A DNA stretch of 64,000 nt from Candidatus Wolfebacteria bacterium GW2011_GWB1_47_1 (GCA_001029635.1 CP011209.1:80983-144982), one strand, 5' to 3'; shown: positions 1,409 through 47,137, numbered from the stretch's first letter. The notes: generated from the letters alone by a model not told the origin. Program-made: numbers and translations.

Positions 1409-1433
1409 GTCATTCCCGCGAAGGCGGGAATCC
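1409..1433. repeat. REP-like hairpin GTCATTCCCGCGAAGGCGGGAATCC (member of dispersed GTCATTCC...GGAAT family)
   Basis: Perfect palindrome ATTCCCGC-GAAG-GCGGGAAT with conserved flanks. Near-identical copy at 3476-3499; covarying copies at 47114, 35053, 26594 (inverted) and 21605. Confidence 0.6.
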
Positions 1434-1572
1434 ACTTCCTTTTGCCGTATATGGATTCCTATGTTCGCGAGAATAATCGAAGACCCACTTGAATAATGGT
1501 CTAATTGTACGCCACGAATAGGCCGATGACAAGAAAAAAAGTCCCCGGATTGCTCCGAGGACTACAGTCCTC

Positions 1573-2886
1573 CTATAGGATGACAAACAGGAATTCCTTA
1601 AACGAGCCGATCACATAATCGAGCATCTCGCGGGTCAGGCCCGGGTACACTCCGATCCAGAACGTATTGTTCATGATGGTATCGGTATTGGCTAGGTCGC
1701 CAACGATACGGTGCTCGATCGCATAGTTCTTGAAGTACGGTTGCCGCGTAGCATTGCCGGCAAACAGCAGTCGCGTGCCAATTTTCCGACTGTCCAGGAA
1801 TTTCAGCAAATCGATCCGATTAAAGCCCGCATTCGGTTTGATCGTAAGCGGGAATCCAAACCAGCTCGGATCCGCACGGGGATCCCAGCTGGGCAGTATG
1901 AAGTGGTCAAAAATAGCTTCATCCTGCTCGAACATGCGATACAGATACCTAAAGTTCTCCTTCCGCTTCTGGATAAATTCCGGCAGGCGTTCCAACTGGG
2001 CCAATCCAAGCGCCGCTTGGATGTCGGTACCCTTCAGGTTGTATCCGATCTCGCTGTACACATACTTGTGATCGTACCCATGGGGCAAATCGCCATGTTG
2101 GTTGCCGAACCGGTTGCCGCAAAAATTGTCGACACCAGTCGGGCAGACGCAATCACGTCCCCAATCCCGCAACGATCGAACGATCGTATTGAGTAGTGGG
2201 TCGTCGGTCAGTACCGCTCCCCCTTCAGCCGTCGTAATGTGATGAGCCGGGTAAAAGCTGCAGGTCGACAGATGCCCGAACGACCCGGTATGTCGGGTAT
2301 CGAGCTTTGATCCAAGTGCATCGCAGTTGTCCTCGATCAGCCACAGTCCACGGTTATAGCAAAACTCCCAAAGGGCTCTCACGTTAAACGGATTACCCAG
2401 CGTATGGGCGATGAAGACGACTTTGGTCTTGGGCGATACGGCACTTGCGATTGCCTCGATTGACGCGTTATACGTACTCAGTTCGACATCCACGAACACC
2501 GGCACCGCGCCGACCTGGATGATCGGGTTGATCGTGGTCGGAAACCCGGCCGCGACCGTGATCACCTCATCGCCCCGCTTAAGCCTACGCTTTTCCGGAA
2601 TTCGGAACGATGTAAGCGCCGAAAGCGCCAACAGATTCGCGGATGAGCCGGAATTGACGAAGGAGCAGTAGCGCGTGCCGATAAACTCGGCGAGCCGCTC
2701 CTCAAACTGTTTTGCGAACTTGCCTTCCGTCCACCAGCCTTCCAGCACCGCATCGATCATCATTACTAGTTCGTTCCTGCCGAAAACCTTGCCGGAAACC
2801 GGCACAGGAGTTACCCCGGGGACAAACGCGTGAGCCCCTACACTTCTTTTTCTTACCGCCTCGTCAATCAGCCGACTGATGTCCAT
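1573..2886 (-). CDS. DegT/DnrJ/EryC1/StrS-family PLP/PMP sugar aminotransferase/dehydrase (RfbH / CDP-4-keto-6-deoxyglucose-3-dehydrase E1-like, ~437 aa)
   Basis: ORF 1573..3027 translation has the DegT fold signature (GxxxFxxxLAEFIGTRYCSFVNSGSSANLLAL...). Internal ATG at 2886-2884 (MDISRLIDEAV) is preceded by GGGGAGG; the upstream 47 codons look like an ORF-finder extension. Family call is robust; the E1-versus-aminotransferase distinction is not verified. Confidence 0.7.
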   Translation of the reverse strand: MDISRLIDEAVRKRSVGAHAFVPGVTPVPVSGKVFGRNELVMMIDAVLEGWWTEGKFAKQFEERLAEFIGTRYCSFVNSGSSANLLALSALTSFRIPEKRRLKRGDEVITVAAGFPTTINPIIQVGAVPVFVDVELSTYNASIEAIASAVSPKTKVVFIAHTLGNPFNVRALWEFCYNRGLWLIEDNCDALGSKLDTRHTGSFGHLSTCSFYPAHHITTAEGGAVLTDDPLLNTIVRSLRDWGRDCVCPTGVDNFCGNRFGNQHGDLPHGYDHKYVYSEIGYNLKGTDIQAALGLAQLERLPEFIQKRKENFRYLYRMFEQDEAIFDHFILPSWDPRADPSWFGFPLTIKPNAGFNRIDLLKFLDSRKIGTRLLFAGNATRQPYFKNYAIEHRIVGDLANTDTIMNNTFWIGVYPGLTREMLDYVIGSFKEFLFVIL

Positions 2887-2959
2887 AGTGAACCTCCCCG
2901 TTCCCTTGATGGTAATGCGATGAAATTGACAAAAAGTTTCTGCCCCTAGCGTCGCCCAT

Positions 2960-3469
2960 TTAAAAAATTTTGTCAATGTCGGGGAAGTGGGACGTTCGCT
3001 TTGTGTCCAATATCGCCTTTCGAACATTCTTCCATAAAATCCGATGTTCAGGAATAATATCTTTCGGCATCGTTTTAAAAAACGTCCCCTGTGCCGGACG
3101 ATCGCTTTTACTTAAAAACACCAATGATACACCACTCCCCCGAGGGCTGTTCCAATAATTGAGCGGGAATAGGAATTTGTATTTTTTGATATGCAACCCT
3201 ACTTCGGCAATAGCCATTTTCTTGATCCGCTCATCAACCGTTTCCCGATACCGCATCAACCCTCCCGGAAAATGCCACCCTTTCCACCATTGGTCTTCAC
3301 GCCAAGTAAGGAGTATCTCTCCTTTTTCATTCATAACAACAAGCTCACACGCAATAAACGGTACTACATCACACAGGGCGTCAAATACCGGCTGAGGCAA
3401 TCCGCTATGAGGATCTTCTATTTTCCCCAAGAGCGTAGCGAGCTGTTCTGTTTCTTTTTTGGTAAGCAT
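2960..3469 (-). CDS. Nudix hydrolase, GDP-mannose mannosyl hydrolase (NudD/Gmm/WcaH)-like
   Basis: 169 aa; KGWHFPGGLMRYRETVDERIKKMAIAEVGL resembles the atypical Nudix box of E. coli Gmm ([30 protein letters not shown]). Paralog at 12549-13046. Confidence 0.65.
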   Translation of the reverse strand: MLTKKETEQLATLLGKIEDPHSGLPQPVFDALCDVVPFIACELVVMNEKGEILLTWREDQWWKGWHFPGGLMRYRETVDERIKKMAIAEVGLHIKKYKFLFPLNYWNSPRGSGVSLVFLSKSDRPAQGTFFKTMPKDIIPEHRILWKNVRKAILDTKRTSHFPDIDKIF

Positions 3470-3475
3470 GTATCT

Positions 3476-3499
3476 GTCATTCCCGCGAAGGCGGGAGTC
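3476..3499. repeat. REP-like hairpin GTCATTCCCGCGAAGGCGGGAGTC
   Basis: Second copy of the 1409-1433 element, between two minus-strand genes. Confidence 0.6.
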
Positions 3500-3541
3500 T
3501 ATTGCTGATCTAATTTTTATTCTGATAGTTTAATTATAAAC

Positions 3542-3569
3542 AAAAAAAATGAGGGGGTCGAACCCCCTC
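3542..3569 (-). terminator. rho-independent terminator after methyltransferase gene
   Basis: GAGGGGG-TCGAA-CCCCCTC perfect 7-bp GC stem followed by an 8-nt T-run on the minus strand, 30 nt downstream of the stop at 3600. Confidence 0.65.
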
Positions 3570-3599
3570 ATCGGATTGTATATTTTGCGCGATCAATTC

Positions 3600-4763
3600 C
3601 TATGCGAACTCGATTTTGTTGTCCCGGAGTACTGCAACGTCCGCTCCGAAATTCAACTGTCTCAACGTTTTCAGTACTTCGTCAGGATAGAGCCCGGGGA
3701 CCATGACGATCACAAGATCGACCGGATTTTCCTCCAAGTGGCTCGGTGCCACGATATTAAAATGTGTGACCGGAGTGAATCTTCCCTGTTTGAACTTTGC
3801 GGAATCAATCACATAGGCAATATCGGTGATATTACTCAGTGCCAGCAGCGTTAATGTTCTATGACCCGCCCCCCACACCGCTATCTTCTGGTTATTTGTC
3901 ACGTAGGTTGCGACGAGACGCTGCAGCTCGTTAATGAGCAAATGCATCGGACCGCGGCGACCAAAAAGGTTTAGAGCCTCTCGCTTTTTCACCGTTGCCG
4001 CAATGTCATTCTCTTCGTTGATGATCCGGCATTCCAGTACGTCAAACCCGTTTGCCTCAAAAGCATGGGTCAACGTCCTCGTCGTGAAGTACGAAATGTG
4101 ATCGGGAACGAATTCGTAGAGACATTTCGTCTTAAGCAGGTATTCCAGGTTGGGGACAGTTACAAACCCCACGGCATTGGCCGCCAAGTTGCCGGATATG
4201 TTTTCGATAATCCTACCAGGATCGGGCAAATGCTCGAGATAGTTCAGACAGATGAACGCATCGAAGGGGCCTCCGGCTATCGCGCCCCTGTCTCCGATGT
4301 ACCGCTGGACCATCGTCCTACCCAAAGCCGCTCCCCTCTCTACCGATTTTCCGGACGCTTCCACCCCTGTTGCTTGCATGCCGACTTCTTCCAAAACATC
4401 CAGCATCGCACCTTCGCCACAGCCGATATCCACTACCTTTTTACCTGCAAGTCCGAATCGCTCGACCAACTCTTGCATCTGGCCCAGCCGGGACAATCTT
4501 GCCTTCTCGGATAATGAAGCGGCGGTAATAACCTCCTTGAAGTAGTCCACTGGCTGCATCCCATGCTGCACCAGTCCGCAATGCGAACACTGCTTGATCG
4601 CCAGGGTAATGCCGGTGTCCTCGGCAAATTCATCGATTTCCGGATAATACTGGGCAGCTTTTGGCATCCCTTTCAAAAGAAGAATCTGACCTGCGGGTAG
4701 TGCGTGATTGCACAAATGACAGCGGTTGTTCGAATCCATGGTTCTCTCCTCCTCTGTATTCAA
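3600..4763 (-). CDS. SAM-dependent sugar C-methyltransferase (TylCIII/NovU-like: N-terminal Zn-ribbon + class I MTase + C-methyltransferase C-terminal domain)
   Basis: 387 aa; CHLCNH...CSHCG zinc-ribbon, a VVDIGCGEGAML SAM-binding motif, and a long C-terminal domain. Architecture is typical of NDP-hexose C-methyltransferases. RBS GAGGAGGAGAGAA upstream. Confidence 0.6.
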   Translation of the reverse strand: MNTEEERTMDSNNRCHLCNHALPAGQILLLKGMPKAAQYYPEIDEFAEDTGITLAIKQCSHCGLVQHGMQPVDYFKEVITAASLSEKARLSRLGQMQELVERFGLAGKKVVDIGCGEGAMLDVLEEVGMQATGVEASGKSVERGAALGRTMVQRYIGDRGAIAGGPFDAFICLNYLEHLPDPGRIIENISGNLAANAVGFVTVPNLEYLLKTKCLYEFVPDHISYFTTRTLTHAFEANGFDVLECRIINEENDIAATVKKREALNLFGRRGPMHLLINELQRLVATYVTNNQKIAVWGAGHRTLTLLALSNITDIAYVIDSAKFKQGRFTPVTHFNIVAPSHLEENPVDLVIVMVPGLYPDEVLKTLRQLNFGADVAVLRDNKIEFA

Positions 4764-4858
4764 TTTTTTAGCGCATAACCCAAAATATATGTGGATATAT
4801 GCACTTTTATATACTGACTATCTTATACTGCTTCAAACAATACGTGTCAAGAAAATAC

Positions 4859-5818: not shown

Positions 5819-5904
5819 TGATTCAGGATTGTAGGAAAATTATTGCACGCATGACGATACTACTTACAATATTGTCTAATGTAGACCATGCCCATATAAA
5901 AATC

Positions 5905-5940
5905 AAATAAAAAAAGGCCCGGGCATTACGCACCGGGCCT
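5905..5940 (-). terminator. rho-independent terminator after aldolase gene
   Basis: GGCCCGG-loop-CCGGGCC stem followed by a T7 run on the minus strand, just downstream of the stop at 5959. Confidence 0.6.
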
Positions 5941-5958
5941 TCGCAATCCATCGCTAGA

Positions 5959-6741: not shown

Positions 6742-6783
6742 CGGTCTACCTCCTTTTCCTTGAGTGATGTCTGGGATCTACGA

Positions 6784-7833: not shown

Positions 7834-7837
7834 TTGT

Positions 7838-19900: not shown

Positions 19901-20983
19901 AACACTCTTCACACCACCCCAAATAGAACTAACAACGTTAGAAGCCCTTGCGACAATACTCGGCTTCGGCGTTTCTTCTTTCAAAAAATCAGGATCTTGT
20001 CGAGCCTTTTCAACATCGTGGAAGAATAGGTCAATCACCCCAGCGCTATAGTGAACCGTACGGACGGAAAGAAGGGACCAGTAGGATTCCATAACTAAAT
20101 CCTTAGTCACAGAAGTATTAGCACTATTCGTTCCATAAATATCATCTAGATTTCGCTGGGCAACTAAGAAATATTGACTCCCCTCATCATCCTTACTCTT
20201 AAAATAATACCATCCGTCATTTTTAGACTCAGCAGTCTTAAAATCAAGCTCCGGGAAATCGTACGCCCCTATAGATTCGGGACTATAGAAATATTTATTG
20301 GAATACTTTGCCAACCCATCGAAGTACTTATCGAGCGAACGAAGACTGACGGGCTTTTTATCTCCGATGCGACTCCTAAGCTGATCATCAGGACTATTTG
20401 AATCGTACCGGGCTGTGTATTCTTCATATTTACTACCCTTTACGTGACTGTCGTTTCTTGTATGCTCAGGTACCCCCATATCCTCCATAAGATGGAGAAT
20501 GTGGCCGAGCACCTCCATGGCCATTGCTTCGTCGCCATTAAGCCAATAGCGAATCCCCTCATTCCATGCAAAGTTCGAGGTTGGATAAAATCCTTCTATT
20601 TTTTCTTTATCAACCGGAGCAAGAGAGGAATCCGAAAGGAGTGTGTATTCAACACCGCCCTGACTCACTAAGTCATTAGCCCATTCCTTCGCCGACTCAC
20701 CGTCAAGAAGACCATCACTAAGCCCCGCATCATTAATGGGATCATAAAAATGATTCCGATACCGAGGATCGTCATCCTCGTGGATAGATCCGTCTATCAA
20801 GAAGCGCTTCAGATCAGCAGATATCTTATTCTCCGCCGTGTTTTTGTTATACAGCTCGATTGCTTCAGCAGTTAGATAGGCATGCGTATTGACTTCGTAT
20901 CCATACACCAATTGCGCAGAAAAAAATAAACCAACCACCAGTAGAAGCGAGGGAATCAAAACGCCAAATTTTCTATTTTCCAT
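16925..20983 (-). CDS. giant secreted protein: N-terminal Zn-dependent phospholipase C-like domain + coiled coil + three lamin-tail-domain (LTD) repeats
   Basis: 1352 aa; signal peptide; HFYDPINDAG matches the PLC zinc-binding region (B. cereus ASHFYDPD). LTD signatures VINEVAWMGG...EWIELKN, QFYPVTINEIMYD...REWIELRN, QFYPVIINEAMYD...REWIELYN. Two ~300-aa internal tandem repeats. Confidence 0.7.
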   Translation of the reverse strand: MENRKFGVLIPSLLLVVGLFFSAQLVYGYEVNTHAYLTAEAIELYNKNTAENKISADLKRFLIDGSIHEDDDPRYRNHFYDPINDAGLSDGLLDGESAKEWANDLVSQGGVEYTLLSDSSLAPVDKEKIEGFYPTSNFAWNEGIRYWLNGDEAMAMEVLGHILHLMEDMGVPEHTRNDSHVKGSKYEEYTARYDSNSPDDQLRSRIGDKKPVSLRSLDKYFDGLAKYSNKYFYSPESIGAYDFPELDFKTAESKNDGWYYFKSKDDEGSQYFLVAQRNLDDIYGTNSANTSVTKDLVMESYWSLLSVRTVHYSAGVIDLFFHDVEKARQDPDFLKEETPKPSIVARASNVVSSIWGGVKSVTVKTGAFFGNVLGAIGNGITSSAKFVGGLFTNDNGLTDVGSVGLESSELDTGSNDEADASAGPNTTTVKKDAATKKNDEIAALKLQIAQLQKEAQVQDKTVLALEKKKPEVVESDAQEVELVKSASSKQLDAPLCPYGSTTKSIQRGVVINEVAWMGGVRSAGDEWIELKNVSSNDVDVSGWQLLNKGGGVKIRLDDLKNSTVKAGQIVLLERTDNNSAVGVTADLIYSGALGNSSDGLHLFDSSCSIVDEIPVAAHWTAGSNDSKQTMERNSGGGWRTSSSVGGTPKKENSAGVTYSNGGGISVSLSSAQSGRGGDSLSIAEPQFYPVTINEIMYDLPGADTNREWIELRNTGSTTVDILDWKLFEGEVNHELAAVQGSSVMSVDGYVIITGSKDEFLKDNAGFTGSILESSFSLNNDGEQLSFKNGTLTIDSTSYASSTGAYGDGASLQLIDGVWVAASSTPGRINSAPIVNVATTTADMYATSSQSIHSADSGGLSVITYYQSLATSTSYTVGSFSVYGSGVAGKWRGGVCAFNPLTLKCSTVLVQAFADRDMPGGDTETLLTFGFNEPVALDAGMLYALFVEPTGSVPAKDRVSHIRGSAADVYLGGKLYAFGQYEPYYINEAIDTGLADMYFAISSIALATTTQVTESSTEDIATTTATTTIMQFYPVIINEAMYDLPGADEGREWIELYNNGTTTVDIAEWKFYENETHHGLTLKQGSPSLLPAGYAVIGNDSTAFLADNSGFTGTLFDSTFSLSNEGEFLVLKNGDLVIDTTMYASATGAQGDGNSLQKFGDVWQAASSTPGMENVMPVVVLEPEPTSTESTTTDFVDSDVVAFPSGPATLSQLNDSIRSTPTVKARYQQVIGKNAISSIKIVRIYGESERAGRWRVGICTDLASCAKTSIAEVYSSEENNVADVKTSMVFDFGNLIALDPAINYVLYFIPPSDALSSVYGAAEYGAYVNGGLTTYVGSEGRDVGVHDMYFEIN

Positions 20984-21609
20984 ACGCTTGAATATTTATC
21001 CTTAGTTATTTCAACACCTATCTGAGCTCTTCCATTCTCAAGATAAGAAAACCAGACATTATTATCCGAGGAGTTTGAATCTTTTTCCAACTTCGCCTTC
21101 CCTAAATAATCAAGCAGCGTCTCAAACTTTCCCTCCGCACGAATCCGATCGAGATTTGCTATCAGCATGTCCTGCCGCTTCTGCGGTTCAATCACAAAAT
21201 ATTTTTCCGCTTGCTCAATGTCGCCTTTTTTTAACGCCGCAGTAAATAACTGCAACGTTTCTTCCGGCGTTGCGCCGCCATCCTTGTCATTCTTCAACCG
21301 CTCTTGCAGTTCGCTCATCGCTTGCTGATTGCGCTCCATGCCCTCCACAAATTCCATATCCTCCTGCTTCTGTATGTACATACCAATGGCAGGGATGCCG
21401 ATAAATCCGACCAATAACAATGCAAAAAATCCTCCAATAAACTTCCAATAATGGTTTTTGATCGAGCCTTGCTCACTGTTCCCATTAGTTCCCTTATCCC
21501 GTTGTTCCGTCCCCGCAATGCCGTTCTCCCCTAAAAGCTCTGCGTCCTTTTCCAAATATTGTGCAATAATACCTTCCTTTTGCTGTTCTTCCATAGTTTT
21601 CTTTGTCAT
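20956..21609 (-). CDS. hypothetical single-pass membrane protein
   Basis: 217 aa, one TM helix (FIGGFFALLLVGFIGIPAIGMYI), charged N-terminus; overlaps downstream gene start by 28 nt. Confidence 0.4.
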   Translation of the reverse strand: MTKKTMEEQQKEGIIAQYLEKDAELLGENGIAGTEQRDKGTNGNSEQGSIKNHYWKFIGGFFALLLVGFIGIPAIGMYIQKQEDMEFVEGMERNQQAMSELQERLKNDKDGGATPEETLQLFTAALKKGDIEQAEKYFVIEPQKRQDMLIANLDRIRAEGKFETLLDYLGKAKLEKDSNSSDNNVWFSYLENGRAQIGVEITKDKYSSVWKIENLAF

Positions 21610-21790
21610 TCCTGCGCATGCAGAAATCCATTACCCTAATTAATTTTTCCTAACCTTTTACGTCGTCATTCCGATCTCATTCGACAGGCTCAGGGCAAAC
21701 TCCGAAGTACTCTTCGGAGTCGAGGAATTTGTTGCAGATTAGTCGACTGCACTCCCTTTCGCTCGGGATGACAGAGTGGGCAAGCTCACA
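21605..21790. repeat. cluster of degenerate GTCATTCC-type hairpin repeats (REP-like) next to the RAYT gene
   Basis: GTCATTCCTGCGCATGCAGAAATCC (21605-21629), GTCATTCCGAT...CTCCGAAGTACTCTTCGGAG, and an inverted GTCATCCCGAGCGAAAGGGAGTG copy (~21741-21775). Confidence 0.4.
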
Positions 21791-21943: not shown

Positions 21944-22737
21944 ATGTACGTCATCTGATGACGTACATACCGGAATATTATTTTTCCAGAAGAACATCAT
22001 ATATTTCTCCAATACTGATATCCTTCACCCATTGATCCAACGCCTGCGCATACCCCTTCTCTCCTCCAAAAAATTCGAGCAGCAATTCTCGCTGTGTAAC
22101 CGATGGAAAGTTTTTCTTTCCTAAATAATCCAAGTGACTCGACCACCGATAATTCTCCAAGTAACTCATCGCATCAGCATGATTATGTACAGCACGCTCT
22201 CGCCACCCATAATCAAACATATCGAGTGGATTTAAGTGAATATAATATGGCAGATGAACAAAATGTGCATGCGCCGTAACTAATATCGACTTATATCTCC
22301 CTTCAAATAGTGTCCCTTTTCGTTCATATCGTTCATTAAAATATCGCGAATACCCCATATTTAATTTCTTCATAAACTTCGAGATGCCACCTTCGATCGC
22401 GGGACTAAGTAATAGATGATAATGATTTGGCATTAAACAGAAAGCATGAATATGAACCAAAAGCTTCCGGGTATGTCCTTCATCTATGGCGATATGTCCT
22501 TCGTCGGCTATTTGCTTGGCTTTTTCGAAAATGCGGTGACTCGTACCAACAGATTCAACGTCATTAAACTCATAAAGGTCATGAATAAATCTAAGATAAT
22601 CAAAAGTATCCTTAAAAATTTCTCGCTTATCGACTCCCCGAGTCAACGCATGATAAAGATCTGCCATATAATACATCGTACTACAATACACGCGCCATCG
22701 CTACATATGTACGTCATCTGATGACGTGCATATGTAG
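21944..22737 (-). mobile_element. IS200/IS605-like element: HUH Y1 transposase (RAYT-like) flanked by palindromic hairpins
   Basis: Flanks are ATGTACGTCATC-T-GATGACGTACAT (21944-21968) and an 18+1+18 version with one mismatch (22701-22737). A third inverted copy is at 22921-22945. Confidence 0.65.
21978..22691 (-). CDS. IS200-like / REP-associated tyrosine transposase (HUH Y1)
   Basis: 237 aa; HUH motif HAFCLMPNHYHLLL and catalytic YRWSS region. Confidence 0.75.
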   Translation of the reverse strand: MYCSTMYYMADLYHALTRGVDKREIFKDTFDYLRFIHDLYEFNDVESVGTSHRIFEKAKQIADEGHIAIDEGHTRKLLVHIHAFCLMPNHYHLLLSPAIEGGISKFMKKLNMGYSRYFNERYERKGTLFEGRYKSILVTAHAHFVHLPYYIHLNPLDMFDYGWRERAVHNHADAMSYLENYRWSSHLDYLGKKNFPSVTQRELLLEFFGGEKGYAQALDQWVKDISIGEIYDVLLEK

Positions 22738-22920
22738 ATGAGAAGCGCCTTCAGAAGCTTTCCTACTCCGCGCTCATAGGTTTATCGTATATGTCATATA
22801 TCATGGCTAATTTGACCCATTTTATGGCATTAAAGGGCACGACAAATACCTTATCACATCGCTTTATATACCTGTTAACTATTTTTCAGTCTAGCATAAG
22901 GGAATCCCACCTGATGCGGA

Positions 22921-22945
22921 ATGTACGTCATCAGATGACGTACAT
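22921..22945. repeat. third copy (inverted orientation) of the RAYT-associated palindrome
   Basis: ATGTACGTCATC-A-GATGACGTACAT. Confidence 0.6.
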
Positions 22946-22960
22946 ATTTTTATAAAACAA

Positions 22961-22989
22961 AAGACCCACACATTGTGTGGGTCTTTTGA
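22961..22989. terminator. bidirectional terminator-like hairpin
   Basis: AAGACCCACAC-ATT-GTGTGGGTCTT perfect 11-bp stem with A-run before and T-run after. Confidence 0.5.
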
Positions 22990-26552: not shown

Positions 26553-26593
26553 TTTAATGTTTATTCTTTTTCAGCGGCAACGAGAGTAGTACT

Positions 26594-26618
26594 GGATTCC
26601 CATTTTCACGGGAATGAC
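26594..26618 (-). repeat. REP-like hairpin (GTCATTCCCGTGAAAATGGGAATCC on minus strand)
   Basis: Same conserved flanks as 1409 / 3476 / 47114 with covarying stem. Confidence 0.5.
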
Positions 26619-27127
26619 AAATAGTTCATTCGTTGTTCGCTTTTGTGTTTTTCAGTAATTCTGAATGGTTAATTTCAATTCTAATTCAATTCGGTCTCAG
26701 AAAGTAATCGCCCCATCAATCGACCAACAGCCGAACCGGTGTGAGGTAAGGTGGCGGTTTGATCAAGGGATACTCTGATTTCTTTCCTCGCACTCGCCGA
26801 ACCGAAGTTCGGCAAGAACGCGAAAGCCTCGCCGGAGCGAGGCTAAATAAGATTCCAAAGAAACGCACAAAAACATCACAATGGATGCCTTTGTGCCTAT
26901 CCCCCACCACCGTGTATGCACAAGGTGTGCGGGGAATTTTTAGAATCTTGGTTTAGCCTCACTCCAAACCAGTTATATACATTGTAAAGTATGCATGCAC
27001 TTTGTCAACAACTGAGACCAGCCAGCGACTAGTATGCATCCATACTTAAGATAACGGTGCTGTCCTGTATTTGTTACACAAACACAGGACAGCGACAAAT
27101 AACTTATAACGAATGACAGGAAATGCA

Positions 27128-31226: not shown

Positions 31227-31688
31227 TTATTCAAACCTTACTTTCACCTTCTTCATCTTTTGCTTATTCACCTTAGGCAAGGTGATGCGCAAGACGCCGT
31301 TTTTAAATGTGGCAGTCGAATGATCCGGGTTGATCTCCTGCGGAAGGATGATCGAACGGGAAAACTTACCCCAATAGCACTCCTGATACAGATAGTCGTT
31401 ATCTTCAACCTTTTCACGCTGTTCGCGCTTACCCCGAATGGCGACGGATTCCGGTGATATTTCCAGATCCAGGTCATCAATGCCTACGCCCGCGACAGGT
31501 GCTTCAATAATGATGTCATTCCCCGCCTGATACACATCAATGGCGAGCTGCCCCTCCCCTTCCTCAAAATCATCAGATTCGTCATCGTCCGATTCTATTT
31601 CATCAACTTTGGCCAATTTCGGTTCAAATTCTTCCTGCTCGGTTGCACCCGCGAGCTTCTCGAAGAATTTCTTGGTGTCATTGTTCAT
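31227..31688 (-). CDS. Hsp20 / alpha-crystallin-family small heat-shock protein
   Basis: 153 aa; ...ATFKNGVLRITLPKV C-terminal alpha-crystallin signature. Confidence 0.8.
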   Translation of the reverse strand: MNNDTKKFFEKLAGATEQEEFEPKLAKVDEIESDDDESDDFEEGEGQLAIDVYQAGNDIIIEAPVAGVGIDDLDLEISPESVAIRGKREQREKVEDNDYLYQECYWGKFSRSIILPQEINPDHSTATFKNGVLRITLPKVNKQKMKKVKVRFE

Positions 31689-35052: not shown

Positions 35053-35087
35053 GGGTGTCATTCCCATAGAGGCGAGAATGGCACCCT
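35053..35087. repeat. hairpin of GTCATTCC family (GGGTGTCATTC-loop-GAATGGCACCC)
   Basis: 11-bp stem with 1 mismatch; shares the GTCATTC/GAATG core. Confidence 0.4.
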
Positions 35088-37271: not shown

Positions 37272-38087
37272 TTATTCTAAGGGACTTTTAATGTTCTTCA
37301 ACATCGGGTTTGTCACTTTCGTATATATTTGCGTCGTCCTAATGTTAGCATGACCGAGTAATTCTTGCACATAGCGCACATCGACACCATTTTCCAATAA
37401 GTGTGTAGCAAAGCTGTGACGCAAAGAATGGAATGTCGCATCTTTTTGAATTCCCGCATTTTGTAATGCGCTTTCAAAAACCTTTTGTGCGGTCCGCTCA
37501 GTTAATTTTCCGCCACGTTCGCTCGCAAGTAAATATTCATTAAAATCACGCCCCGCTATCAATTTACTTATACCATTATTTAATATTTCCGGGAATACCG
37601 TAATGCGATCCTTATTTCCTTTTGCACCCTTGATATGGATTGTTAGCTCTGCCAAGTTTATGTCTTTGATCTTCATATTGACAACCTCACTAACTCGCAA
37701 TCCTCCGGCATAAGCCAATGAAACCATCAGGTTATGTTTTTCATTAGCAATGCCATCTAATAGCGATTGAATTTCGGAGCGGGACAGCACTACTGGCAAT
37801 TTGCTCGGTGTCTTGGCAAAACGGATATCTATTTTTCCGCGATAATTCAACACATTCCAGTAGAAGAAATTGATGGCCTGCAAAGCTTGGTTGGTTGTTT
37901 GTGAAGATTTACCGGCATCTACCTTAGACAGCAGATATGTTTTAATAAAATCCACATCGACTAAATTGAGATTCTCGCCTTTTGCGCGTAAATAGTCGGC
38001 AACACACACACGATAACTCTTGATCGTTTTAGGGCTATAATTCCGCAGCCGCAATTCGTCCTCCAGCTTTTTTAAATAGACGTCCAT
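37272..38087 (-). CDS. tyrosine site-specific recombinase, XerC/XerD-like (phage integrase family)
   Basis: 271 aa; C-terminal catalytic region HSLRHSFATHLLENGVDVRYVQELLGHANIRTTQIYTKV (R...HxxR...Y). Confidence 0.8.
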   Translation of the reverse strand: MDVYLKKLEDELRLRNYSPKTIKSYRVCVADYLRAKGENLNLVDVDFIKTYLLSKVDAGKSSQTTNQALQAINFFYWNVLNYRGKIDIRFAKTPSKLPVVLSRSEIQSLLDGIANEKHNLMVSLAYAGGLRVSEVVNMKIKDINLAELTIHIKGAKGNKDRITVFPEILNNGISKLIAGRDFNEYLLASERGGKLTERTAQKVFESALQNAGIQKDATFHSLRHSFATHLLENGVDVRYVQELLGHANIRTTQIYTKVTNPMLKNIKSPLE

Positions 38088-38192
38088 ATAGACATGGTAT
38101 ATAATAATGAAGGTGTGTTCAAATTATATGTGATATTCGCCTAGTCAGCAATATTGAGTAGCATATACGAAAACACTTCGCATATAAATGAG

Positions 38193-38367
38193 TTACGCAA
38201 AATGTCGTTCGGCTTCACTCCATTTTTCGTAACGTGGAGCTTTGCGAGGGTTGGGCTTCCTCTCTTCCCTATCGGGACAAGTAAACAAGCCTCGCACCAC
38301 ATCGCCTAACAACCGCTTGGCGGCGTCCGCCCAAATCCCGCTCCGCGGGACTTCGCAAAGCTCCACG
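38193..38367 (+). repeat. 175-nt structured repeat, copy 1 (with a diverged ~28-nt 5' extension from 38166)
   Basis: 100% identical to copies 2 and 3. Contains a 12-bp hairpin (TTACGCAAAATG...CATTTTTCGTAA), a 15-bp closing stem (CGTGGAGCTTTGCGA...TCGCAAAGCTCCACG) enclosing ~106 nt with small GC hairpins (GGCGG-CGT-CCGCC; CCCGC-TCC-GCGGG), and an internal GCCTAAC. Confidence 0.8.
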
Positions 38368-38523
38368 TTCAACGAAATAAATTTTTTATCTTGGTGAAAA
38401 TTTAAAGTTTTGTGAGATAAATGGGGACAGAAAATTTGATTTTTTATTAATTTAAAGAGGGGGATACGGAGTTTTTCTGCTCTTTGGGGAGCAGAAAAAA
38501 TTAATTCATTTATAATCAAAAAT

Positions 38524-39135: not shown

Positions 39136-39388
39136 TGCCGATGAGGAGTTTTGAAAAATGAAATTCACCCCTAGCCCCTCTTTCATTTTTCAAAAGAAAA
39201 AATCAAATTTTCTTATACGATAAACTAATGTATAATGAATTTAATAACGAGATAAAAAATTGACATCGTCGAACAACTCATATCTGGCTCAAGAAATTGA
39301 CACTTTAATGTTTCAGATGAAAGCCAATTTCTTTCGACCCAAATTTTTTCGCAATTGCATTGCGCAAAAACTTCAGATATAAGTAACG

Positions 39389-39563
39389 TTACGCAAAATG
39401 TCGTTCGGCTTCACTCCATTTTTCGTAACGTGGAGCTTTGCGAGGGTTGGGCTTCCTCTCTTCCCTATCGGGACAAGTAAACAAGCCTCGCACCACATCG
39501 CCTAACAACCGCTTGGCGGCGTCCGCCCAAATCCCGCTCCGCGGGACTTCGCAAAGCTCCACG
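39389..39563 (+). repeat. 175-nt structured repeat, copy 2
   Basis: Identical core; 5' flank GTAACG shared with copy 3; 3' junction ...CCACG|TTGGAC. Confidence 0.8.
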
Positions 39564-39683
39564 TTGGACGAAATGCCATAAGGAAATTAGGGGGATGGCA
39601 CATCGTCCAACACTGTGTATCTGGTTTCATGAAAAGGGATTCAACAAATAATCTTTTACAATTCAAAATGCCATTTTTTGGGA

Positions 39684-39941: not shown

Positions 39942-40171
39942 AAAGTCCTCCTCATGATTTTGATATATTATCCAAATGTTGTTGAATAATATATTATGAT
40001 AGCACATTATTCGTTGTATGTCAAATATAGAGGAGTAAAAATTCCAAAAATGGCTCAAGTTAAGGAAATTATTTGTTGAATTCCTTTTCATTCCACCCAA
40101 ATTTTTGCTTCTTTTATCTATTTGAACTAATATTGAGGAAGCGAAGCAAAAACTTCAGATACACAGTAACG

Positions 40172-40346
40172 TTACGCAAAATGTCGTTCGGCTTCACTCC
40201 ATTTTTCGTAACGTGGAGCTTTGCGAGGGTTGGGCTTCCTCTCTTCCCTATCGGGACAAGTAAACAAGCCTCGCACCACATCGCCTAACAACCGCTTGGC
40301 GGCGTCCGCCCAAATCCCGCTCCGCGGGACTTCGCAAAGCTCCACG
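40172..40346 (+). repeat. 175-nt structured repeat, copy 3
   Basis: Identical core; 3' junction ...CCACG|CTATGCGAAGACGTTGTAC differs from copies 1 and 2. Confidence 0.8.
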
Positions 40347-40392
40347 CTATGCGAAGACGTTGTACGAAATTACTTCTTTATTAGGTACTATA

Positions 40393-43376: not shown

Positions 43377-43667
43377 GATAGAGCCAATTGATCTATTACG
43401 AGTTACGGGTTGACTCACATTACAGATCCGTATTTTTCTAAATTCGCAATTCGTAATCGAGTAATTCTTCCAATAGTATATCCGATTTCCGCCCGCCGAA
43501 CAAAAAAGACACCACGCAAGCGGATGTCTTTTTATTGAACATGTAAATTGTACAAATTTTGATGAGATGTGAGACGCGGGCATGGCGCAAGGAAGTCGTA
43601 CTACCAGTACGCGACCGAAGCGCCAGGAGACCCGCAACAAAGCAGCTCGCAAAATATGTAGAGTTAT

Positions 43668-44351
43668 TTACTTTTCGGAGGTCTCCCGCTTTAACTTCTC
43701 AATAAGAGAAGCTGCGTAGTCCTTTCCGCCGAGGCCGAAGGCAATACCACCTGCGAGGGCGAGCATAGCAACAACACCGGTAATGACCGTCTGGAGAACA
43801 TAGACGTTGATTCCAAGCTGCATCAAAGCAGTAATGAGACCAAAAACGACAACAATCCACCAAACGAACGATCCGAGGAAGTTAGCTGCGTAAAGCTTCG
43901 CACTCGAAACGGAGGCCTTTACCAATGATTTTGAAAACTTCGCAACTACCAAGGTCGCGAGCATTATCAATGCAGCGGCAACGATATTTGGAAAATACAA
44001 GAGTACTTGTTTCAAGAAATCAGAAAAGACATCCAATCCCAAGAGACTGGAAACTGCCAAAATGGCAACGATCGCGAAGAACCAATAGACAGCCCGACCC
44101 AAGAATCGTCCTGAGTCAAGACGCATATCGCCGCGCTCAACATATTGAGCAACGCCGATTTTCTTCAACAATTCGTCCAATTTAATCGCTTTAATAATCT
44201 GTTCAACTACCGTTCCGAATACGGAAGCGATGACCAAACCGATAATCAACACGATAAGAGCTCCAAGAAACTTAGGCACGAACGCCATTACTCCAAGCCA
44301 CACGTTTGCCAGCGAACCGTAAAGCGTGCTTGTTAAATTTTGTACGAACAT
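43668..44351 (-). CDS. membrane protein with conserved TM-helix repeats (MscS-associated TM_helix family-like)
   Basis: 227 aa, 5-6 TM helices. Confidence 0.45.
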   Translation of the reverse strand: MFVQNLTSTLYGSLANVWLGVMAFVPKFLGALIVLIIGLVIASVFGTVVEQIIKAIKLDELLKKIGVAQYVERGDMRLDSGRFLGRAVYWFFAIVAILAVSSLLGLDVFSDFLKQVLLYFPNIVAAALIMLATLVVAKFSKSLVKASVSSAKLYAANFLGSFVWWIVVVFGLITALMQLGINVYVLQTVITGVVAMLALAGGIAFGLGGKDYAASLIEKLKRETSEK

Positions 44352-44674
44352 TTGTTTGTTATCACCCGCCGATCGAAACCGACAGATGACACCATTATGT
44401 GTTTTCGACCTTTCAACTTGTTACCAGTATACCCCGTTAGAGAATTTATTCCAACACCCACTAATAAAATCAACGCTTATCGACTACAAATGGCACACCT
44501 TAGATATATCGTGGCGTTAAATTCTCTAACGGGTATATATATCAAAAAGTCATTTGATCGCATAGAGGACAATTAGCCAAGGTTCAAATCCATGATCCCC
44601 AGCGTATAAATACTACAAATACAAAAATCTCCATAATCTCGCAGAGGTACTGGCTCTGTGATATAATAGGGACA

Positions 44675-45064
44675 ATGAAATTCTTATCTCGATTCCTGTT
44701 TTCAATATTCTCAAACCTCCTGGCGTTTCTGATCGCGATCAAATTCGTCGAAGGGTTTACGATCGCCGATGGGTCCACAACATTATTCGGCATCAGTGTG
44801 CCGGTCCTGGTCGCCGTAGTGGCGCTATTCACGGTCATTAACCTATTTATCCGACCGATTATCAAGCTTATCCTGAGTCCGATCATCATCCTAACCTTCG
44901 GGCTCGGCATCCTTGTTGTAAACGCATTAATGCTGTATCTGCTTGATTATTTCTCGAAAAATGTTACCATACAGGGACTTGAGCCACTCGCCTACGCGAC
45001 ACTCATCATTAGTGTCGTCAACCTCATTATAGGTGTGTCGGCGCGTAAAACCTACAAAGACTAA
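44675..45064 (+). CDS. YvlD / phage-holin-4_2-family small membrane protein
   Basis: 129 aa, 4 TM; preceded by TATAAT -10 box. Confidence 0.45.
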   Translation: MKFLSRFLFSIFSNLLAFLIAIKFVEGFTIADGSTTLFGISVPVLVAVVALFTVINLFIRPIIKLILSPIIILTFGLGILVVNALMLYLLDYFSKNVTIQGLEPLAYATLIISVVNLIIGVSARKTYKD

Positions 45065-45069
45065 CTACC

Positions 45070-45288
45070 ATGGACTATTTATCAATTGCTCAGCTCGTTT
45101 TATCGATTGTATTGATTATCATCATTCTTCTACAGGAGCGTTCTTCGGGCCTTTCTGGCGCTTTTGGTGGCGGAACCGAGGGAGGAACCTACCAGACCCG
45201 TCGCGGATTTGAACGTATAATCTTCGGAGCAACCATTGTCATTGCGGTTGCATTTGCGGCGCTTTCCCTTGTCGACCTCATTAAATAA
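45070..45288 (+). CDS. secG: preprotein translocase subunit SecG
   Basis: 72 aa; LLQERSSGLSGAFGGGTEGGTYQTRRG matches the SecG signature. Confidence 0.75.
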   Translation: MDYLSIAQLVLSIVLIIIILLQERSSGLSGAFGGGTEGGTYQTRRGFERIIFGATIVIAVAFAALSLVDLIK

Positions 45289-45458
45289 ATTAGAGGCGTT
45301 CTTGTTTTACCGAACTGCTTCGCATGTTGTCGTTACTAACGATTCATTAGTAGCTGAAGCATATACGAAATACCCGAGTACCGACGAGACATCCGCGCGA
45401 TAACGAAGCCCGGAGCATCTCCTCCTTACCCTTAAAATAAGGACGTCTTACTACTTTC

Positions 45459-47096
45459 TTGTTAAAGACAGCTCTCAATCTTTTCTTTTTATTCTCCCGC
45501 AAAGAACGCATCGCGTTCATTGCGGCATTTTTTGTATTGATCATCTCGTCATTACTCCTTCTAATCAGTATCATAAAAACGAATACGGTATTATCCCCTG
45601 TTGATGGTGGCGAATATGTCGAGGGTATCGTCGGTCAGCCGATCTATATCAACCCGATTTTCGCGGAAAACAACAATCCCGACAACGACCTTTCGCAGCT
45701 ATTTTTCGCGAACATGCGGGCGATCGCAGAAAAGGTGGAAATGGGCGAAGACGGAAGAACGTTCACTATTCGCCTCAAGGGAGACATCGCATGGCAAGAC
45801 AATCAGCCGCTTACGGCAGATGATATCATTTTTACCCTGCAGTTAATCCAAGACCCGGACGTGGGGTCTTCGCTTGCGGCGGCATGGAAAGGGGTCCAGA
45901 TCAATCGCATCAGTGAACGCGAGTTACAAATCATCGCCCCCACGACCTATTCCTTCTTCGAAAACACACTTTTATCGCTACAGCCGATCCCAAAGCACCT
46001 CTTTGAAAGCATCCCGCCCGCGAACATACGCCTCTCGGACTACAACCGAGAACCGATCGGTAGCGGCCCGTACAAATTTGATTCCTTTGAAAAACGCCGG
46101 GACGGGTTCATCACGCAAATCACTGCAAAGAAGAACGACAAATACTTCGGAAATCACGCCTACATAGAAACGCTCATAGTGCGGTTCTATCAAAACGAAC
46201 CAGACGCAGTGGAAGCGCTCAATGATGGAGATATCGACGGCATGGCTATTATCGATCCGAAGAATTTCGACGGGGTATCTATTCCCTCCCGTATTCATAA
46301 GCTCGAAATGCCAAGGTATTATGCGGTATTTCCGAATTCCTTTGCTAACCCGATTCTCACGCCGATGAGTATGCGAACTGCGCTCGATCTCGCGATAGAC
46401 AAAGTGGCAATCACGCAGGAGATCTTTGGAGAAAATGCTGTCATGATAACCGATCCGATCCCTCCGTTTACGCCGGAAACGCAAGGCGTGCAGGAATATT
46501 CTCCGGAAAAGGCAAGTGCGATCCTCGAAGAGTATGGGTGGCGTATGACCGACTCAGGCATTCGAGAAAAAGATGGGGAACGACTCGAATTCATATTGAC
46601 GGTATACCCAACACCATTTCTTGAACAAACAGCGGAAATACTTAAAAAACAATGGAAGGTGGTTGGCATTGACGTACAAGTCCATATCGCATCGGCACAC
46701 AACTTCAACAGCGAAGTGATCAAGCCACGTAATTATGAGTTACTCCTCTTTGGGAACAATTACGGTAAAAACCTCGACCCCTATTCCTTCTGGCACTCAA
46801 GTCAAAAGCTAGCACCGGGACTAAATCTATCTGTCTATAGCAATAAGGATGTCGATAAATTCATTGATGTAGTTCGCACGGATTTCGACCCCGCGAGCAG
46901 AGCCATTGGTATGGGACAGATCGAACCGGTTATTATGGAAGATAAACCGGCGGTATTCCTCTACTCACCGTACTATCTCTACGTCAGTAATAAATCTCTT
47001 AAGGGATTTGATGTGCCGTCAATAGGAACACCAAGCGAACGCTTCACGCTCATCGATACATGGTATATCAAGACGGTGCGAACATTCAAAAAATAA
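45459..47096 (+). CDS. ABC transporter substrate-binding protein, family 5 (oligopeptide/nickel OppA-like) with N-terminal membrane anchor
   Basis: 545 aa; TTG start; REPIGSGPYKF signature region. Confidence 0.75.
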   Translation: MLKTALNLFFLFSRKERIAFIAAFFVLIISSLLLLISIIKTNTVLSPVDGGEYVEGIVGQPIYINPIFAENNNPDNDLSQLFFANMRAIAEKVEMGEDGRTFTIRLKGDIAWQDNQPLTADDIIFTLQLIQDPDVGSSLAAAWKGVQINRISERELQIIAPTTYSFFENTLLSLQPIPKHLFESIPPANIRLSDYNREPIGSGPYKFDSFEKRRDGFITQITAKKNDKYFGNHAYIETLIVRFYQNEPDAVEALNDGDIDGMAIIDPKNFDGVSIPSRIHKLEMPRYYAVFPNSFANPILTPMSMRTALDLAIDKVAITQEIFGENAVMITDPIPPFTPETQGVQEYSPEKASAILEEYGWRMTDSGIREKDGERLEFILTVYPTPFLEQTAEILKKQWKVVGIDVQVHIASAHNFNSEVIKPRNYELLLFGNNYGKNLDPYSFWHSSQKLAPGLNLSVYSNKDVDKFIDVVRTDFDPASRAIGMGQIEPVIMEDKPAVFLYSPYYLYVSNKSLKGFDVPSIGTPSERFTLIDTWYIKTVRTFKK

Positions 47097-47113
47097 TCTT
47101 GGTCATAAAGGTT

Positions 47114-47137
47114 GTCATTCCGGCGGAGGCCGGAATC
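47114..47137. repeat. REP-like hairpin GTCATTCCGGCGGAGGCCGGAATC
   Basis: Conserved GTCATTCC/GGAATC flanks with covarying stem CCGGC/GCCGG. Confidence 0.55.

What the first reader, a model, noticed from the sequence alone, without database searches (positions are those of the whole stretch)
1409..47137. Dispersed family of intergenic hairpins with conserved GTCATTCC...GGAAT(C) flanks and covarying stems (REP/REPIN-like)
At least six copies carry the same 8-nt flank and its complement around a stem whose sequence changes with compensatory substitutions:
- 1409-1433 and 3476-3499 (CCCGCG / CGCGGG);
- 47114-47137 (CCGGCG / GCCGG);
- 26594-26618 inverted (CCCGTG / ...GGG);
- 35053-35087 and 21605-21629 (degenerate).

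Several sit immediately 3' of genes. A cluster of decayed copies at 21605-21790 lies right next to the RAYT-like transposase gene. REP-associated tyrosine transposases are the enzymes proposed to disseminate REP/REPIN elements.

Conservation of the flanks while the stem covaries argues for selection on structure, either for RNA stability/termination or for recognition by the Y1 transposase.
Basis: seen in the sequence. Interest (0 to 1): 0.55.

Follow-up and report, generated by a model that had tools for sequence, protein, structure and literature searches.

The report
CGTC-type REP hairpins in Wolfebacteria
The hairpins are real copies of an already described class of small bacterial palindromic repeats (CGTC-tagged REPs, the type called dRS3 in Neisseria), found here in a candidate-phyla-radiation bacterium, and the neighbouring transposase gene carries a different palindrome of its own and so is probably not what spreads them.

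Summary
The window has 8 to 10 intergenic copies of a 27-nt unit: TGTC head, 8-bp stem starting AT, 4-nt loop, CCA tail. The strict pattern gives 3 hits against 0.07 expected. Across 18 copies from the window and a sister species, 97% of stem positions pair and 4 of 8 pairs show compensatory changes.

The unit matches the published CGTC-1 REP family (Di Nocera et al. 2013), which includes Neisseria dRS3 (ATTCCC-N8-GGGAAT). That paper found no dedicated transposase for it. The same 24-mer occurs in more than 120 viral or prophage contigs with GC from 32 to 72%.

The host is a Candidatus Wolfebacteria (Patescibacteria) genome. I found no paper reporting REPs in this phylum.

The proposed RAYT link is not supported. 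The Y1 gene is bracketed by a different palindrome, ATGTACGTCATC-N-GATGACGTACAT, which is itself a dispersed low-copy repeat. In 80 other genomes the homologous Y1 genes carry their own lineage-specific palindromes, and 1.07 Mb of their flanks holds only one good CGTC REP.

The hairpins lack U-tracts, so they are not intrinsic terminators. They do not form REPIN doublets.

Verdict: a new member of a known kind, of modest interest.

The parts
1408..1434 (+). CGTC-1-type REP, perfect: TGTC ATTCCCGC GAAG GCGGGAAT CCA. Its head lies 8 nt upstream of the ATG (1399) of a minus-strand membrane-protein gene, and its tail 138 nt after the DegT stop codon.
   Evidence: (dG -13.7 kcal/mol)
3475..3501 (+). 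CGTC-1-type REP with one T·G position (TGTCATTCCCGCGAAGGCGGGAGTCTA). Its head lies 5 nt upstream of the NUDIX gene ATG (3469, minus strand).
21604..21630 (+). CGTC-1-type REP with one C/A mismatch (TGTCATTCCTGCGCATGCAGAAATCCA). It lies 9 nt upstream of the likely ATG (21594) of the 212-aa gene. It is orthologous to an intact REP in sister species L206.
21664..21728 (+). Long or interrupted variant: CGTCATTCC...(internal hairpin CTCCGAAGTACTCTTCGGAG)...GGAAT. Long variants with the same head and outer stem are common in L206.
21748..21773 (-). Degenerate relative (TGTCATCCCGAGCGAAAGGGAGTGCA), conserved at the orthologous site in L206.
26592..26619 (-). CGTC-1-type REP with one G·T position (TGTCATTCCCGTGAAAATGGGAATCCAG). 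It lies 39 nt upstream of the 1054-aa surface-protein gene. An orthologous copy is present in L206.
35056..35082 (+). Decayed REP (TGTCATTCCCATAGAGGCGAGAATGGC) between the transketolase-N stop codon (35121) and the next ATG (35025).
47113..47139 (+). CGTC-1-type REP, perfect, with a covaried stem (TGTC ATTCCGGC GGAG GCCGGAAT CTA). It lies 16 nt after the stop codon of the SBP_bac_5 gene.
47177..47205 (-). REP variant with a 6-nt loop (TGTC ATCCCGTG CCACGA CACGGGAT CCA). Its head lies 9 nt upstream of the GPI gene ATG (47215). It forms a tail-to-tail pair with the copy at 47113.
1565..1585 (-). Doubtful short relative (TGTCATCCTATAGGAGGACTG) overlapping the DegT stop codon.
21978..22667 (-). 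Y1 (HUH) transposase-like gene of 229 aa. The HYH motif and the RYK tyrosine are conserved across homologues. It is not shown to act on the REPs.
21944..21968 (.). The Y1 gene's own palindrome, ATGTACGTCATCTGATGACGTACAT, about 10 bp (9-12 by the boundaries used) after the Y1 stop codon.
22707..22731 (.). Second copy of the Y1 palindrome, just upstream of the Y1 start codon.
22921..22945 (.). Third copy of the Y1 palindrome, next to a bidirectional terminator hairpin (22958-22988).

Best explanation
**What it is.** The hairpins are members of the CGTC-tagged REP superfamily, family CGTC-1, the same kind as Neisseria dRS3. Here they carry the TGTC head variant and sit in a Candidatus Wolfebacteria (Patescibacteria) chromosome. 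Each unit is about 27 nt: an unpaired TGTC head, an 8-bp stem that begins A-T then T-A, a 4-nt loop and a CCA tail.

**Shown.**
- The units are multi-copy and almost entirely intergenic.
- The hairpin is maintained through compensatory changes.
- Some copies are inherited at orthologous sites between sister species, while others are present in one species and absent in the other.
- They lack U-tracts.
- The adjacent Y1 transposase gene has a different palindrome family of its own.

**Inferred.**
- They are non-autonomous, largely selfish palindromic elements.
- They multiply through a single-strand hairpin intermediate. The enzyme acts in trans and is still unidentified, as for all CGTC REPs.
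- Once inserted between co-directional genes they are co-transcribed and form a stable RNA hairpin of about -13.7 kcal/mol.
- That hairpin can act as a local barrier to RNA decay or processing. The genome encodes RNase J.
- It does not act as a terminator.
For: **Family match.** Head, stem length, AT at the first two stem positions, loop length and CCA tail all agree with the published definition. That definition also says CGTC-1 equals dRS3 (alignment). Two copies fit the dRS3 pattern ATTCCC(N8)GGGAAT, with 0.00 expected by chance.

**Wide distribution.** The same 24-mer, followed by a CCAG tail, occurs in more than 120 IMG/VR contigs with GC from 32 to 72%.

**Enrichment and covariation.**

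**Sister species L206 (Y1 protein 91% identical).** It has 15 intact short copies in 20.7 kb plus long variants. Of 41 GTCAT[TCA]C hits, 30 fall in the 24% of the locus that is intergenic.

**Turnover.** L206 has a 43-nt insertion carrying a REP, and about 130 nt more with a second REP, both absent from the orthologous window spacer. Copies that appear orthologous differ by two compensatory double changes (L206 has two near-duplicate copies there, so the pairing is not certain). Another copy is conserved at an orthologous site in both species.

**Not terminators.** No REP is called as a terminator, while the true terminator at 22958-22988 is called.

**The Y1 gene has its own palindrome.**

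**Host and RNase J.** RNase J is encoded at 48448-50529.
Against: - No direct evidence of transcription, RNA function or transposition is available; only DNA was analysed.
- The whole genome was not available. Copy number rests on 64 kb of the window plus about 20 kb from a sister species.
- Head-to-head dimers, described as the predominant arrangement for CGTC REPs, do not occur in the window, which has two tail-to-tail pairs. They do occur in L206.
- In the sister species CGTC REPs flank the Y1 gene on both sides with their tails facing it. That resembles a REPtron, so a Y1 link is not strictly excluded.
- Compensatory changes in palindromes can arise by templated repair or copy replacement, without selection on RNA structure.
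Confidence: 0.8

Rival explanations
1. The hairpins are REP or REPIN elements spread by the adjacent RAYT-like Y1 transposase, and the cluster at 21605-21790 is a remnant of the REPs that flank a RAYT gene.
For: - A Y1 (HUH) gene is present, and degenerate copies lie 205-375 bp from its 3' end.
- In sister species L206, intact REPs lie on both sides of the Y1 gene with their tails facing it: 2 upstream and 3 downstream.
- The Y1 gene's own palindrome contains CGTCAT, the invariant head plus first stem bases of CGTC REPs.
- In two metagenome loci that palindrome sits 10-11 nt from a TGTCATT head, joined by a similar linker.
Against: - The elements immediately flanking the Y1 gene are a different palindrome, which is itself dispersed.
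- 80 homologous Y1 loci have their own palindromes but essentially no CGTC REPs in 1.07 Mb.
- Three other Wolfebacteria-like loci (L210, L212, L213) have the Y1 gene and no REPs. Two of these (L210, L213), and L129 among the 80 other loci, have CGTCAT-containing palindromes all the same.
- The CATC-N-GATG top is common to the palindromes of many lineages, so only about 2 extra bases match the REP head.
- REPs fill nearly every intergenic region in L206, so flanking the Y1 gene is expected by chance.
- There are no REPIN doublets.
- The NCBIfam RAYT model scores below its cutoff.
- Di Nocera et al. found no transposase association for CGTC REPs.
Confidence: 0.1
2. The hairpins work mainly as DNA sites for site-specific recombination or integration. 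In Neisseria, dRS3 is the attachment target of the Nf filamentous prophage recombinase. This role need not exclude the selfish-repeat model.
For: - dRS3 serves as the Nf1 integration site and is proposed to drive rearrangements.
- The same motif is frequent in viral or prophage contigs, sometimes at contig ends.
- The synteny breakpoint between two 99.86%-identical strains (L208 and L206) falls inside a long REP variant.
Against: - No IS110/Piv-type recombinase or prophage lies next to any copy in the window.
- The L208 breakpoint could be an assembly chimera at a repeat; that contig has low coverage.
- Near-identical strains L001-L005 show no rearrangement at the REPs.
Confidence: 0.1
3. The hairpins are ordinary gene-specific regulatory hairpins, such as intrinsic terminators or attenuators, that evolved in place rather than a repeat family.
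For: They are intergenic, stable and probably co-transcribed.
Against: - Identical 24-27-mers occur at unrelated loci and across phyla.
- No T-run follows any copy in either orientation, and none is called as a terminator.
- They occur in both orientations relative to transcription.
- Sister species differ in presence or absence of copies.
Confidence: 0.03

Closest known systems
CGTC-tagged REPs, family CGTC-1 (Di Nocera, De Gregorio & Rocco 2013, BMC Genomics 14:522)
   Same: Unpaired CGTC/TGTC head, 8-bp stem starting AT, 4-nt loop, CCA tail, intergenic multi-copy distribution, variable stems, occasional dimers, and no transposase gene flanked by the repeats.
   Different: The host phylum is Patescibacteria (Candidatus Wolfebacteria); the paper lists Proteobacteria, Chlorobi, Bacteroidetes, Spirochaetes and Thermotogae. 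Every copy here has the TGTC head. The window shows tail-to-tail rather than head-to-head pairs. Long variants with 14-15-bp stems coexist with the short form in the sister species.
Neisseria dRS3 repeats and NIME arrays
   Same: Two window copies fit ATTCCC(N8)GGGAAT exactly. The full 24-mer GTCATTCCCGCG-NNN-GCGGGAATC is shared.
   Different: There are no RS elements or long NIME arrays in the window. Density is far lower than about 700 copies per genome. No Nf-type prophage or recombinase is present.
GTAG REPs / REPINs with RAYT (E. coli, Pseudomonas)
   Same: Short intergenic palindromes with an unpaired 5' tag and covarying stems. A Y1 HUH gene is present nearby.
   Different: The tag is TGTC, not GTAG. 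The Y1 gene is not flanked by these repeats. There are no REPIN doublets. The Y1 protein falls below the RAYT equivalog cutoff.
TIRYT / TIRtron (Y1 genes flanked by inverted repeats unrelated to REPs; same 2013 paper)
   Same: The window's Y1 gene is bracketed by a self-complementary repeat that forms a small dispersed family, as described for some TIRYT genes.
   Different: This applies to the Y1 gene, not to the hairpins of the finding. The flank here is a perfect 25-nt palindrome rather than a pair of long TIRs. The family is near-universal in Patescibacteria.

Membership tests
CGTC-1 REP | Unpaired terminal tag CGTC (or TGTC/CCTC) | tested here: met
   TGTC in 18 of 18 aligned copies. CGTC at 21664. 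Definition.
CGTC-1 REP | 8-bp stem with complementary A-T and T-A in the first and second positions | tested here: met
   Pair 1 is A-U in 18 of 18 copies. Pair 2 is U-A in 17 of 18. Overall 97.2% of stem cells pair.
CGTC-1 REP | 4-nt loop | tested here: met
   All 18 aligned copies have a 4-nt loop. One window copy, at 47177-47205, has a 6-nt loop.
CGTC-1 REP | 3-nt unpaired tail, mostly CCA | tested here: met
   CCA in 14 of 18 copies and CTA in 3 of 18.
CGTC-1 REP | Multi-copy, predominantly intergenic | tested here: met
   8-10 copies in 64 kb, all intergenic. In L206, 30 of 41 motif hits fall in the 24% of the locus that is intergenic. The whole genome was not available.
CGTC-1 REP | Head-to-head dimers predominant, tail-to-tail dimers rare | tested here: inconclusive
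   The window has two tail-to-tail pairs (47113/47205 and 21664/21773). L206 has three head-to-head pairs (3618/3643, 16461/16478, 20655/20667). The sample is small.
Neisseria dRS3 | Pattern ATTCCC(N8)GGGAAT | tested here: met
   2 window copies against 0.00 expected. Pattern taken.
Neisseria dRS3 | Embedded with RS elements in NIME arrays; target of the Nf prophage recombinase | tested here: not met
   No arrays and no prophage or IS110-type gene in the window. Integration activity cannot be tested with these tools.
REP/REPIN-RAYT system | The RAYT gene is flanked by the same REPs that are dispersed in the genome | tested here: not met
   The immediate flanks are ATGTACGTCATC-N-GATGACGTACAT, not the TGTC hairpin.
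REP/REPIN-RAYT system | REPIN doublets: two inverted, near-identical REPs that fold into one long hairpin | tested here: not met
   The 47113/47205 pair folds as two independent hairpins with different stems.
REP/REPIN-RAYT system | Y1 protein with HUH motif and catalytic Tyr that scores as a RAYT | tested here: inconclusive
   HYH is invariant and the RYK tyrosine nearly invariant across homologues. Pfam Y1_Tnp E=1.2e-10. NCBIfam REP_Tyr_transpos scores 36.5 bits against a cutoff of 80.
Intrinsic terminator | GC-rich hairpin followed directly by a U-tract | tested here: not met
   No REP is called, while the true terminator at 22958-22988 is called. The flanks can be read.

The most novel reading that the evidence does not exclude
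In this Wolfebacteria lineage the TGTC-tagged REPs are mobilised in trans by the neighbouring Y1 enzyme. Its own palindromes carry the same CGTCAT core and, at some loci, sit a fixed 10-11 nt from a REP head. If so, this would be the first candidate transposase for the CGTC REP superfamily, which the 2013 survey found to have none.
Probability: 0.08. Interest if true: 0.65.

Novelty: new member of a known kind. Interest (0 to 1): 0.3.

Why it matters
- It extends a described but poorly understood repeat superfamily (CGTC REPs, dRS3) to the candidate phyla radiation. The 27-nt sequence is essentially the same as in Proteobacteria, despite very different genome size, GC content and lifestyle.
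- This sharpens an open question: what enzyme or host factor keeps this exact hairpin alive across phyla?
- Two sister Wolfebacteria species differ several-fold in REP density. They share some orthologous copies and differ by clean insertions or deletions at others. That makes them a small, tractable pair for working out insertion sites and turnover.
- A practical point for annotation: the ATG inside the GGAATGAC head creates false start codons. An example is ORF 20956-21609.

Tried and rejected
1. **CGTCAT inside the Y1 palindrome as a link to the REP head.** Rejected as significant. The tops of the palindromes in many lineages share CATC-N-GATG or GACGTC-N-GACGTC. Loci with CGTCAT palindromes (L210, L213, L129) have no REPs.
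2. **An apparent switch of REP orientation at the Y1 gene in L206** (7 of 8 '+' upstream, 7 of 7 '-' downstream). It dissolves once the long variants and the window's own copies are added.
3. **REP as a Shine-Dalgarno element for the genes 5-9 nt downstream.** Rejected. The GGGA lies 11-15 nt from the ATG, and most native genes here have no SD at all.
4. **REPIN doublet.** Rejected.
5. **Intrinsic terminator.** Rejected.
6. **Rfam.** Only two tRNAs reach gathering score.
7. **Strain comparison L001-L005 for REP insertion polymorphism.** Uninformative, because the strains are at least 99.87% identical with no differences at the REPs.
8. **G·U versus A·C asymmetry to infer the functional strand.** Only 4 informative mismatches (3 G·U, 1 A·C in the transcribed sense), too few to conclude.
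9. **Literature search for REPs in Patescibacteria.** Nothing relevant found.

Full report
**1. Observation**

The pattern GTCATTCC-N(8-25)-GGAAT has 3 exact hits in the window against 0.07 expected from shuffles. GTCATTCC alone has 8 hits against 2.3 expected. The 24-mer GTCATTCCCGCGAAGGCGGGAATC with up to 3 mismatches has 3 hits against 0.00 expected.

Reading every GTCAT[TC]C site gives these family members:
- 1408-1434 (+)
- 3475-3501 (+)
- 21604-21630 (+)
- 21664-21728 (+), a long, interrupted variant
- 21748-21773 (-), degenerate
- 26592-26619 (-)
- 35056-35082 (+), decayed
- 47113-47139 (+)
- 47177-47205 (-), with a 6-nt loop
- 1565-1585 (-), doubtful

The hit at 31515 is inside a gene, has no hairpin and looks like chance.

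**2. Anatomy**

The unit is TGTC | ATTCCCGC | GAAG | GCGGGAAT | CCA. That is an unpaired head, an 8-bp stem, a 4-nt loop, the complementary arm and a 3-nt tail.

Intact copies fold at about -13.7 kcal/mol on either strand, with z-scores of about -3.5.

I aligned 18 fixed-length copies, 6 from the window and 12 from the sister-species locus L206. On that alignment:
- 97.2% of stem cells form standard pairs.
- 4 of the 8 pairs show changes on both sides, in 18 cells in total.
- No shuffle out of 500 reaches the observed pairing or covariation score.
- Sliding the 3' partner by 1-3 columns drops pairing to 19-52%.

The L206 copies were chosen with a pairing filter, which inflates the percentage paired. 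An unfiltered list of the head motif in L206 shows the same hairpins.

**3. Host and context**

The window is 100% identical to JGI contig Ga0209212_1000035, and nearly identical to NCBI GCA_001000945.1 LCNR01000002.1.

The best named homologues of its proteins come from Candidatus Wolfebacteria. Large LTD-domain and peptidoglycan-binding surface proteins fit a Patescibacteria genome.

The rest of the window is ordinary chromosome: sugar-nucleotide enzymes, ClpB, RNase J, TyrS/TrpS-type synthetase, GAPDH and NusA. There is no transposase other than the Y1 gene, and one tyrosine recombinase.

**4. Identification**

Their GC content ranges from 32 to 72%. The motif is usually followed by C(C/T)AG. 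Some of these contigs show the periodic arrays typical of Neisseria.

Di Nocera, De Gregorio & Rocco (2013; PMC3733652) defined 'CGTC-tagged REPs'. Their description reads as follows:
- The tag is CGTC, or TGTC in many repeats.
- Stems are 8 bp in families 1 and 2, and almost always start with AT.
- The loop is 4 nt in family 1.
- The tail is mostly CCA.
- CGTC-1 in Neisseria is dRS3.
- The family was found in five phyla.

The window's copies meet every structural criterion. Two also fit the dRS3 pattern ATTCCC(N8)GGGAAT.

I found no paper in the library describing REPs in Patescibacteria.

**5. The Y1 ('RAYT-like') gene**

ORF 21978-22667 (-) is a Pfam Y1_Tnp protein (E=1.2e-10). Its HYH motif is invariant and the RYK tyrosine nearly invariant across 16 homologues. 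On NCBIfam's REP-associated tyrosine transposase model it scores only 36.5 bits against a cutoff of 80.

It is bracketed by a different, perfect palindrome, ATGTACGTCATC-N-GATGACGTACAT. Copies lie at 21944-21968 (12 bp after the stop codon), 22707-22731 (34 bp before the start codon) and 22921-22945. There are no others in the window.

The family is very large in Patescibacteria, with 4779 hits. I examined 80 genome loci. In almost all, the gene is flanked within 0-50 bp on both sides by one long, near-perfect palindrome. The sequence of that palindrome is lineage-specific, for example GGACATCNGATGTCC, GACGTCNGACGTC or GAGGTTSAACCTC at the top. This matches the 'TIRYT/TIRtron' situation of the 2013 paper.

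The 1.07 Mb around those 80 genes holds just one convincing CGTC-1 REP, in L145. The window alone has six strict copies.

Three closer Wolfebacteria-like loci (L210, L212, L213; Y1 70-75% identical) have the gene and their own palindromes but no REPs in 15-20 kb.

A metagenome scan for the window's Y1 palindrome found it at the Y1 locus of the sister species and at about 8 distinct loci without a Y1 gene. It is therefore a small dispersed family of its own, and the better candidate for this enzyme's cognate REP.

**6. Sister species**

L206 (GCA_001793895.1) has a Y1 protein 91% identical to the window's and is syntenic with it. It has the same three Y1 palindromes and 15 intact short REPs in 20.7 kb. 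It also has long variants with the same head and outer stem, such as GTCATTCCGATCCGCCAGCTGGCGGATTCGGAATC, and three head-to-head dimers.

REPs lie on both sides of its Y1 gene. But they also lie in almost every other intergenic region, so this adjacency says little.

The orthologous spacer between the Y1 gene and the next gene shows turnover:
- L206 has a 43-nt insertion carrying a REP that is absent from the window.
- It also has about 130 nt more with another REP.
- The aligned copies (window 21604 and L206 11163) differ by two compensatory double substitutions (T-A to C-G and C-G to T-A). L206 has two near-duplicate copies here (11163 and 11306), so which one is the true orthologue is not certain.

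The REP upstream of the large surface-protein gene is conserved at the orthologous site in both species. Copies are therefore both inherited and gained or lost.

**7. Function**

No copy is followed by a T-run in either orientation. The terminator scan calls none of them, yet it does call the true bidirectional terminator at 22958-22988.

The only close inverted pair (47113/47205) folds as two separate hairpins, not as a REPIN.

Copies occur in both orientations relative to transcription. Four window copies, and one in L206, lie with the head 5-9 nt upstream of a start codon, so the mRNA reads ...GGGAAUGACA-N5-9-AUG. This is not a Shine-Dalgarno arrangement, and most native genes here lack an SD anyway.

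Because the flanking genes are co-directional and closely spaced, the copies are very probably co-transcribed.

My best inference is that these are largely selfish palindromic elements whose RNA hairpin can act as a local barrier to decay or processing. The genome encodes RNase J. This step is inferred, not shown.

**8. Rivals**

- **RAYT mobilisation.** The evidence in sections 5 and 6 argues against it, but it is not excluded. I put it at about 0.1.
- **A dRS3-like role as a recombination or integration site.** This is possible. One strain-level synteny breakpoint falls inside a long REP variant, though that may be an assembly chimera. No recombinase sits next to any copy.
- **In-place regulatory hairpins.** Cross-locus and cross-phylum sequence identity contradicts this.

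**9. Verdict**

The 'REP-like' label is right. The RAYT link, the REPIN idea and the terminator idea are not supported.

This is a new host lineage for a known repeat family, so it is a new member of a known kind and of modest interest. The residual novel possibility is that this Y1 enzyme is the missing transposase of CGTC REPs. That is unlikely, at about 8%, but could be tested directly in vitro.

Noticed in passing
window 38186-38376, 39382-39572, 40165-40355 (next to tyrosine recombinase gene 37272-38087, minus strand): Three direct repeats of about 191 nt, 96-98% identical, separate short ORFs beside a Phage_integrase-family gene. In the NCBI strain (L002) the segments between the repeats are in a different order from the window. 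This suggests a recombinase-driven cassette-shuffling or shufflon-like region.
   Followed up: partly
loci L126-L205, L210-L213 (Y1 homologues); window 21944-22945: A Y1 (HUH) transposase-like gene family with 4779 homologues, near-universal in Patescibacteria, is almost always bracketed within 0-50 bp on both sides by a lineage-specific, near-perfect palindrome (stem 10-25 bp, loop 1-3). In L210 and L213 its neighbours (MFS, UvrC) are conserved, which suggests a largely vertically inherited 'REPtron/TIRtron'.
   Followed up: partly
L217 10800-11250; L221 2700-2850 (= L224); L228: Mosaic clusters in related metagenome contigs interleave the Y1-type palindrome with CGTC REPs. One REP is TGGATTCCCGCCTGCGCGGGAATGACA, which fits the Neisseria Nf1-target subtype. 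At two loci the palindrome lies 10-11 nt from a TGTCATT head, joined by a similar linker (ATAYTCGYATT).
   Followed up: partly
L208 about 4886 versus L206 about 11241: Two 99.86%-identical strains lose synteny exactly inside a long REP variant. This is either recombination at a REP or a metagenome assembly chimera.
   Followed up: no
window-wide, e.g. upstream of the ATGs at 54410, 56454, 37242, 38087: Most native genes have no Shine-Dalgarno sequence. Many have a TATAAT-like box only 5-12 nt before the ATG, which suggests leaderless or very short-leader mRNAs. The genes at about 5.9-12.4 kb (aldolase-like, radical SAM, HAD, TPP enzyme) instead have strong GGAGG sites, as if the block were acquired from elsewhere.
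   Followed up: no
window 20956-21609 (minus strand): The ATG inside the REP head (GGAATGACA) makes a false start codon for this ORF. The sister species indicates that the real start is the ATG at 21594 (MEEQ...). This is a likely general annotation artefact in REP-rich genomes.
   Followed up: yes
IMG/VR loci L006-L125: The 24-mer GTCATTCCCGCG-NNN-GCGGGAATC occurs in more than 120 viral or prophage contigs with GC from 32 to 72%, sometimes at the contig ends. The loop is most often CAG, AAG or AAA.
   Followed up: partly
window 51702-51729 and 27062-27090: Two other strong palindromes that start with TGTC but are unrelated to the family: TGTCCAAATTGACGGTCGTCAATTTGGAC and TGTCCTGTATTTGTTACACAAACACAGGAC. 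They are probably gene-specific hairpins or terminators.
   Followed up: no
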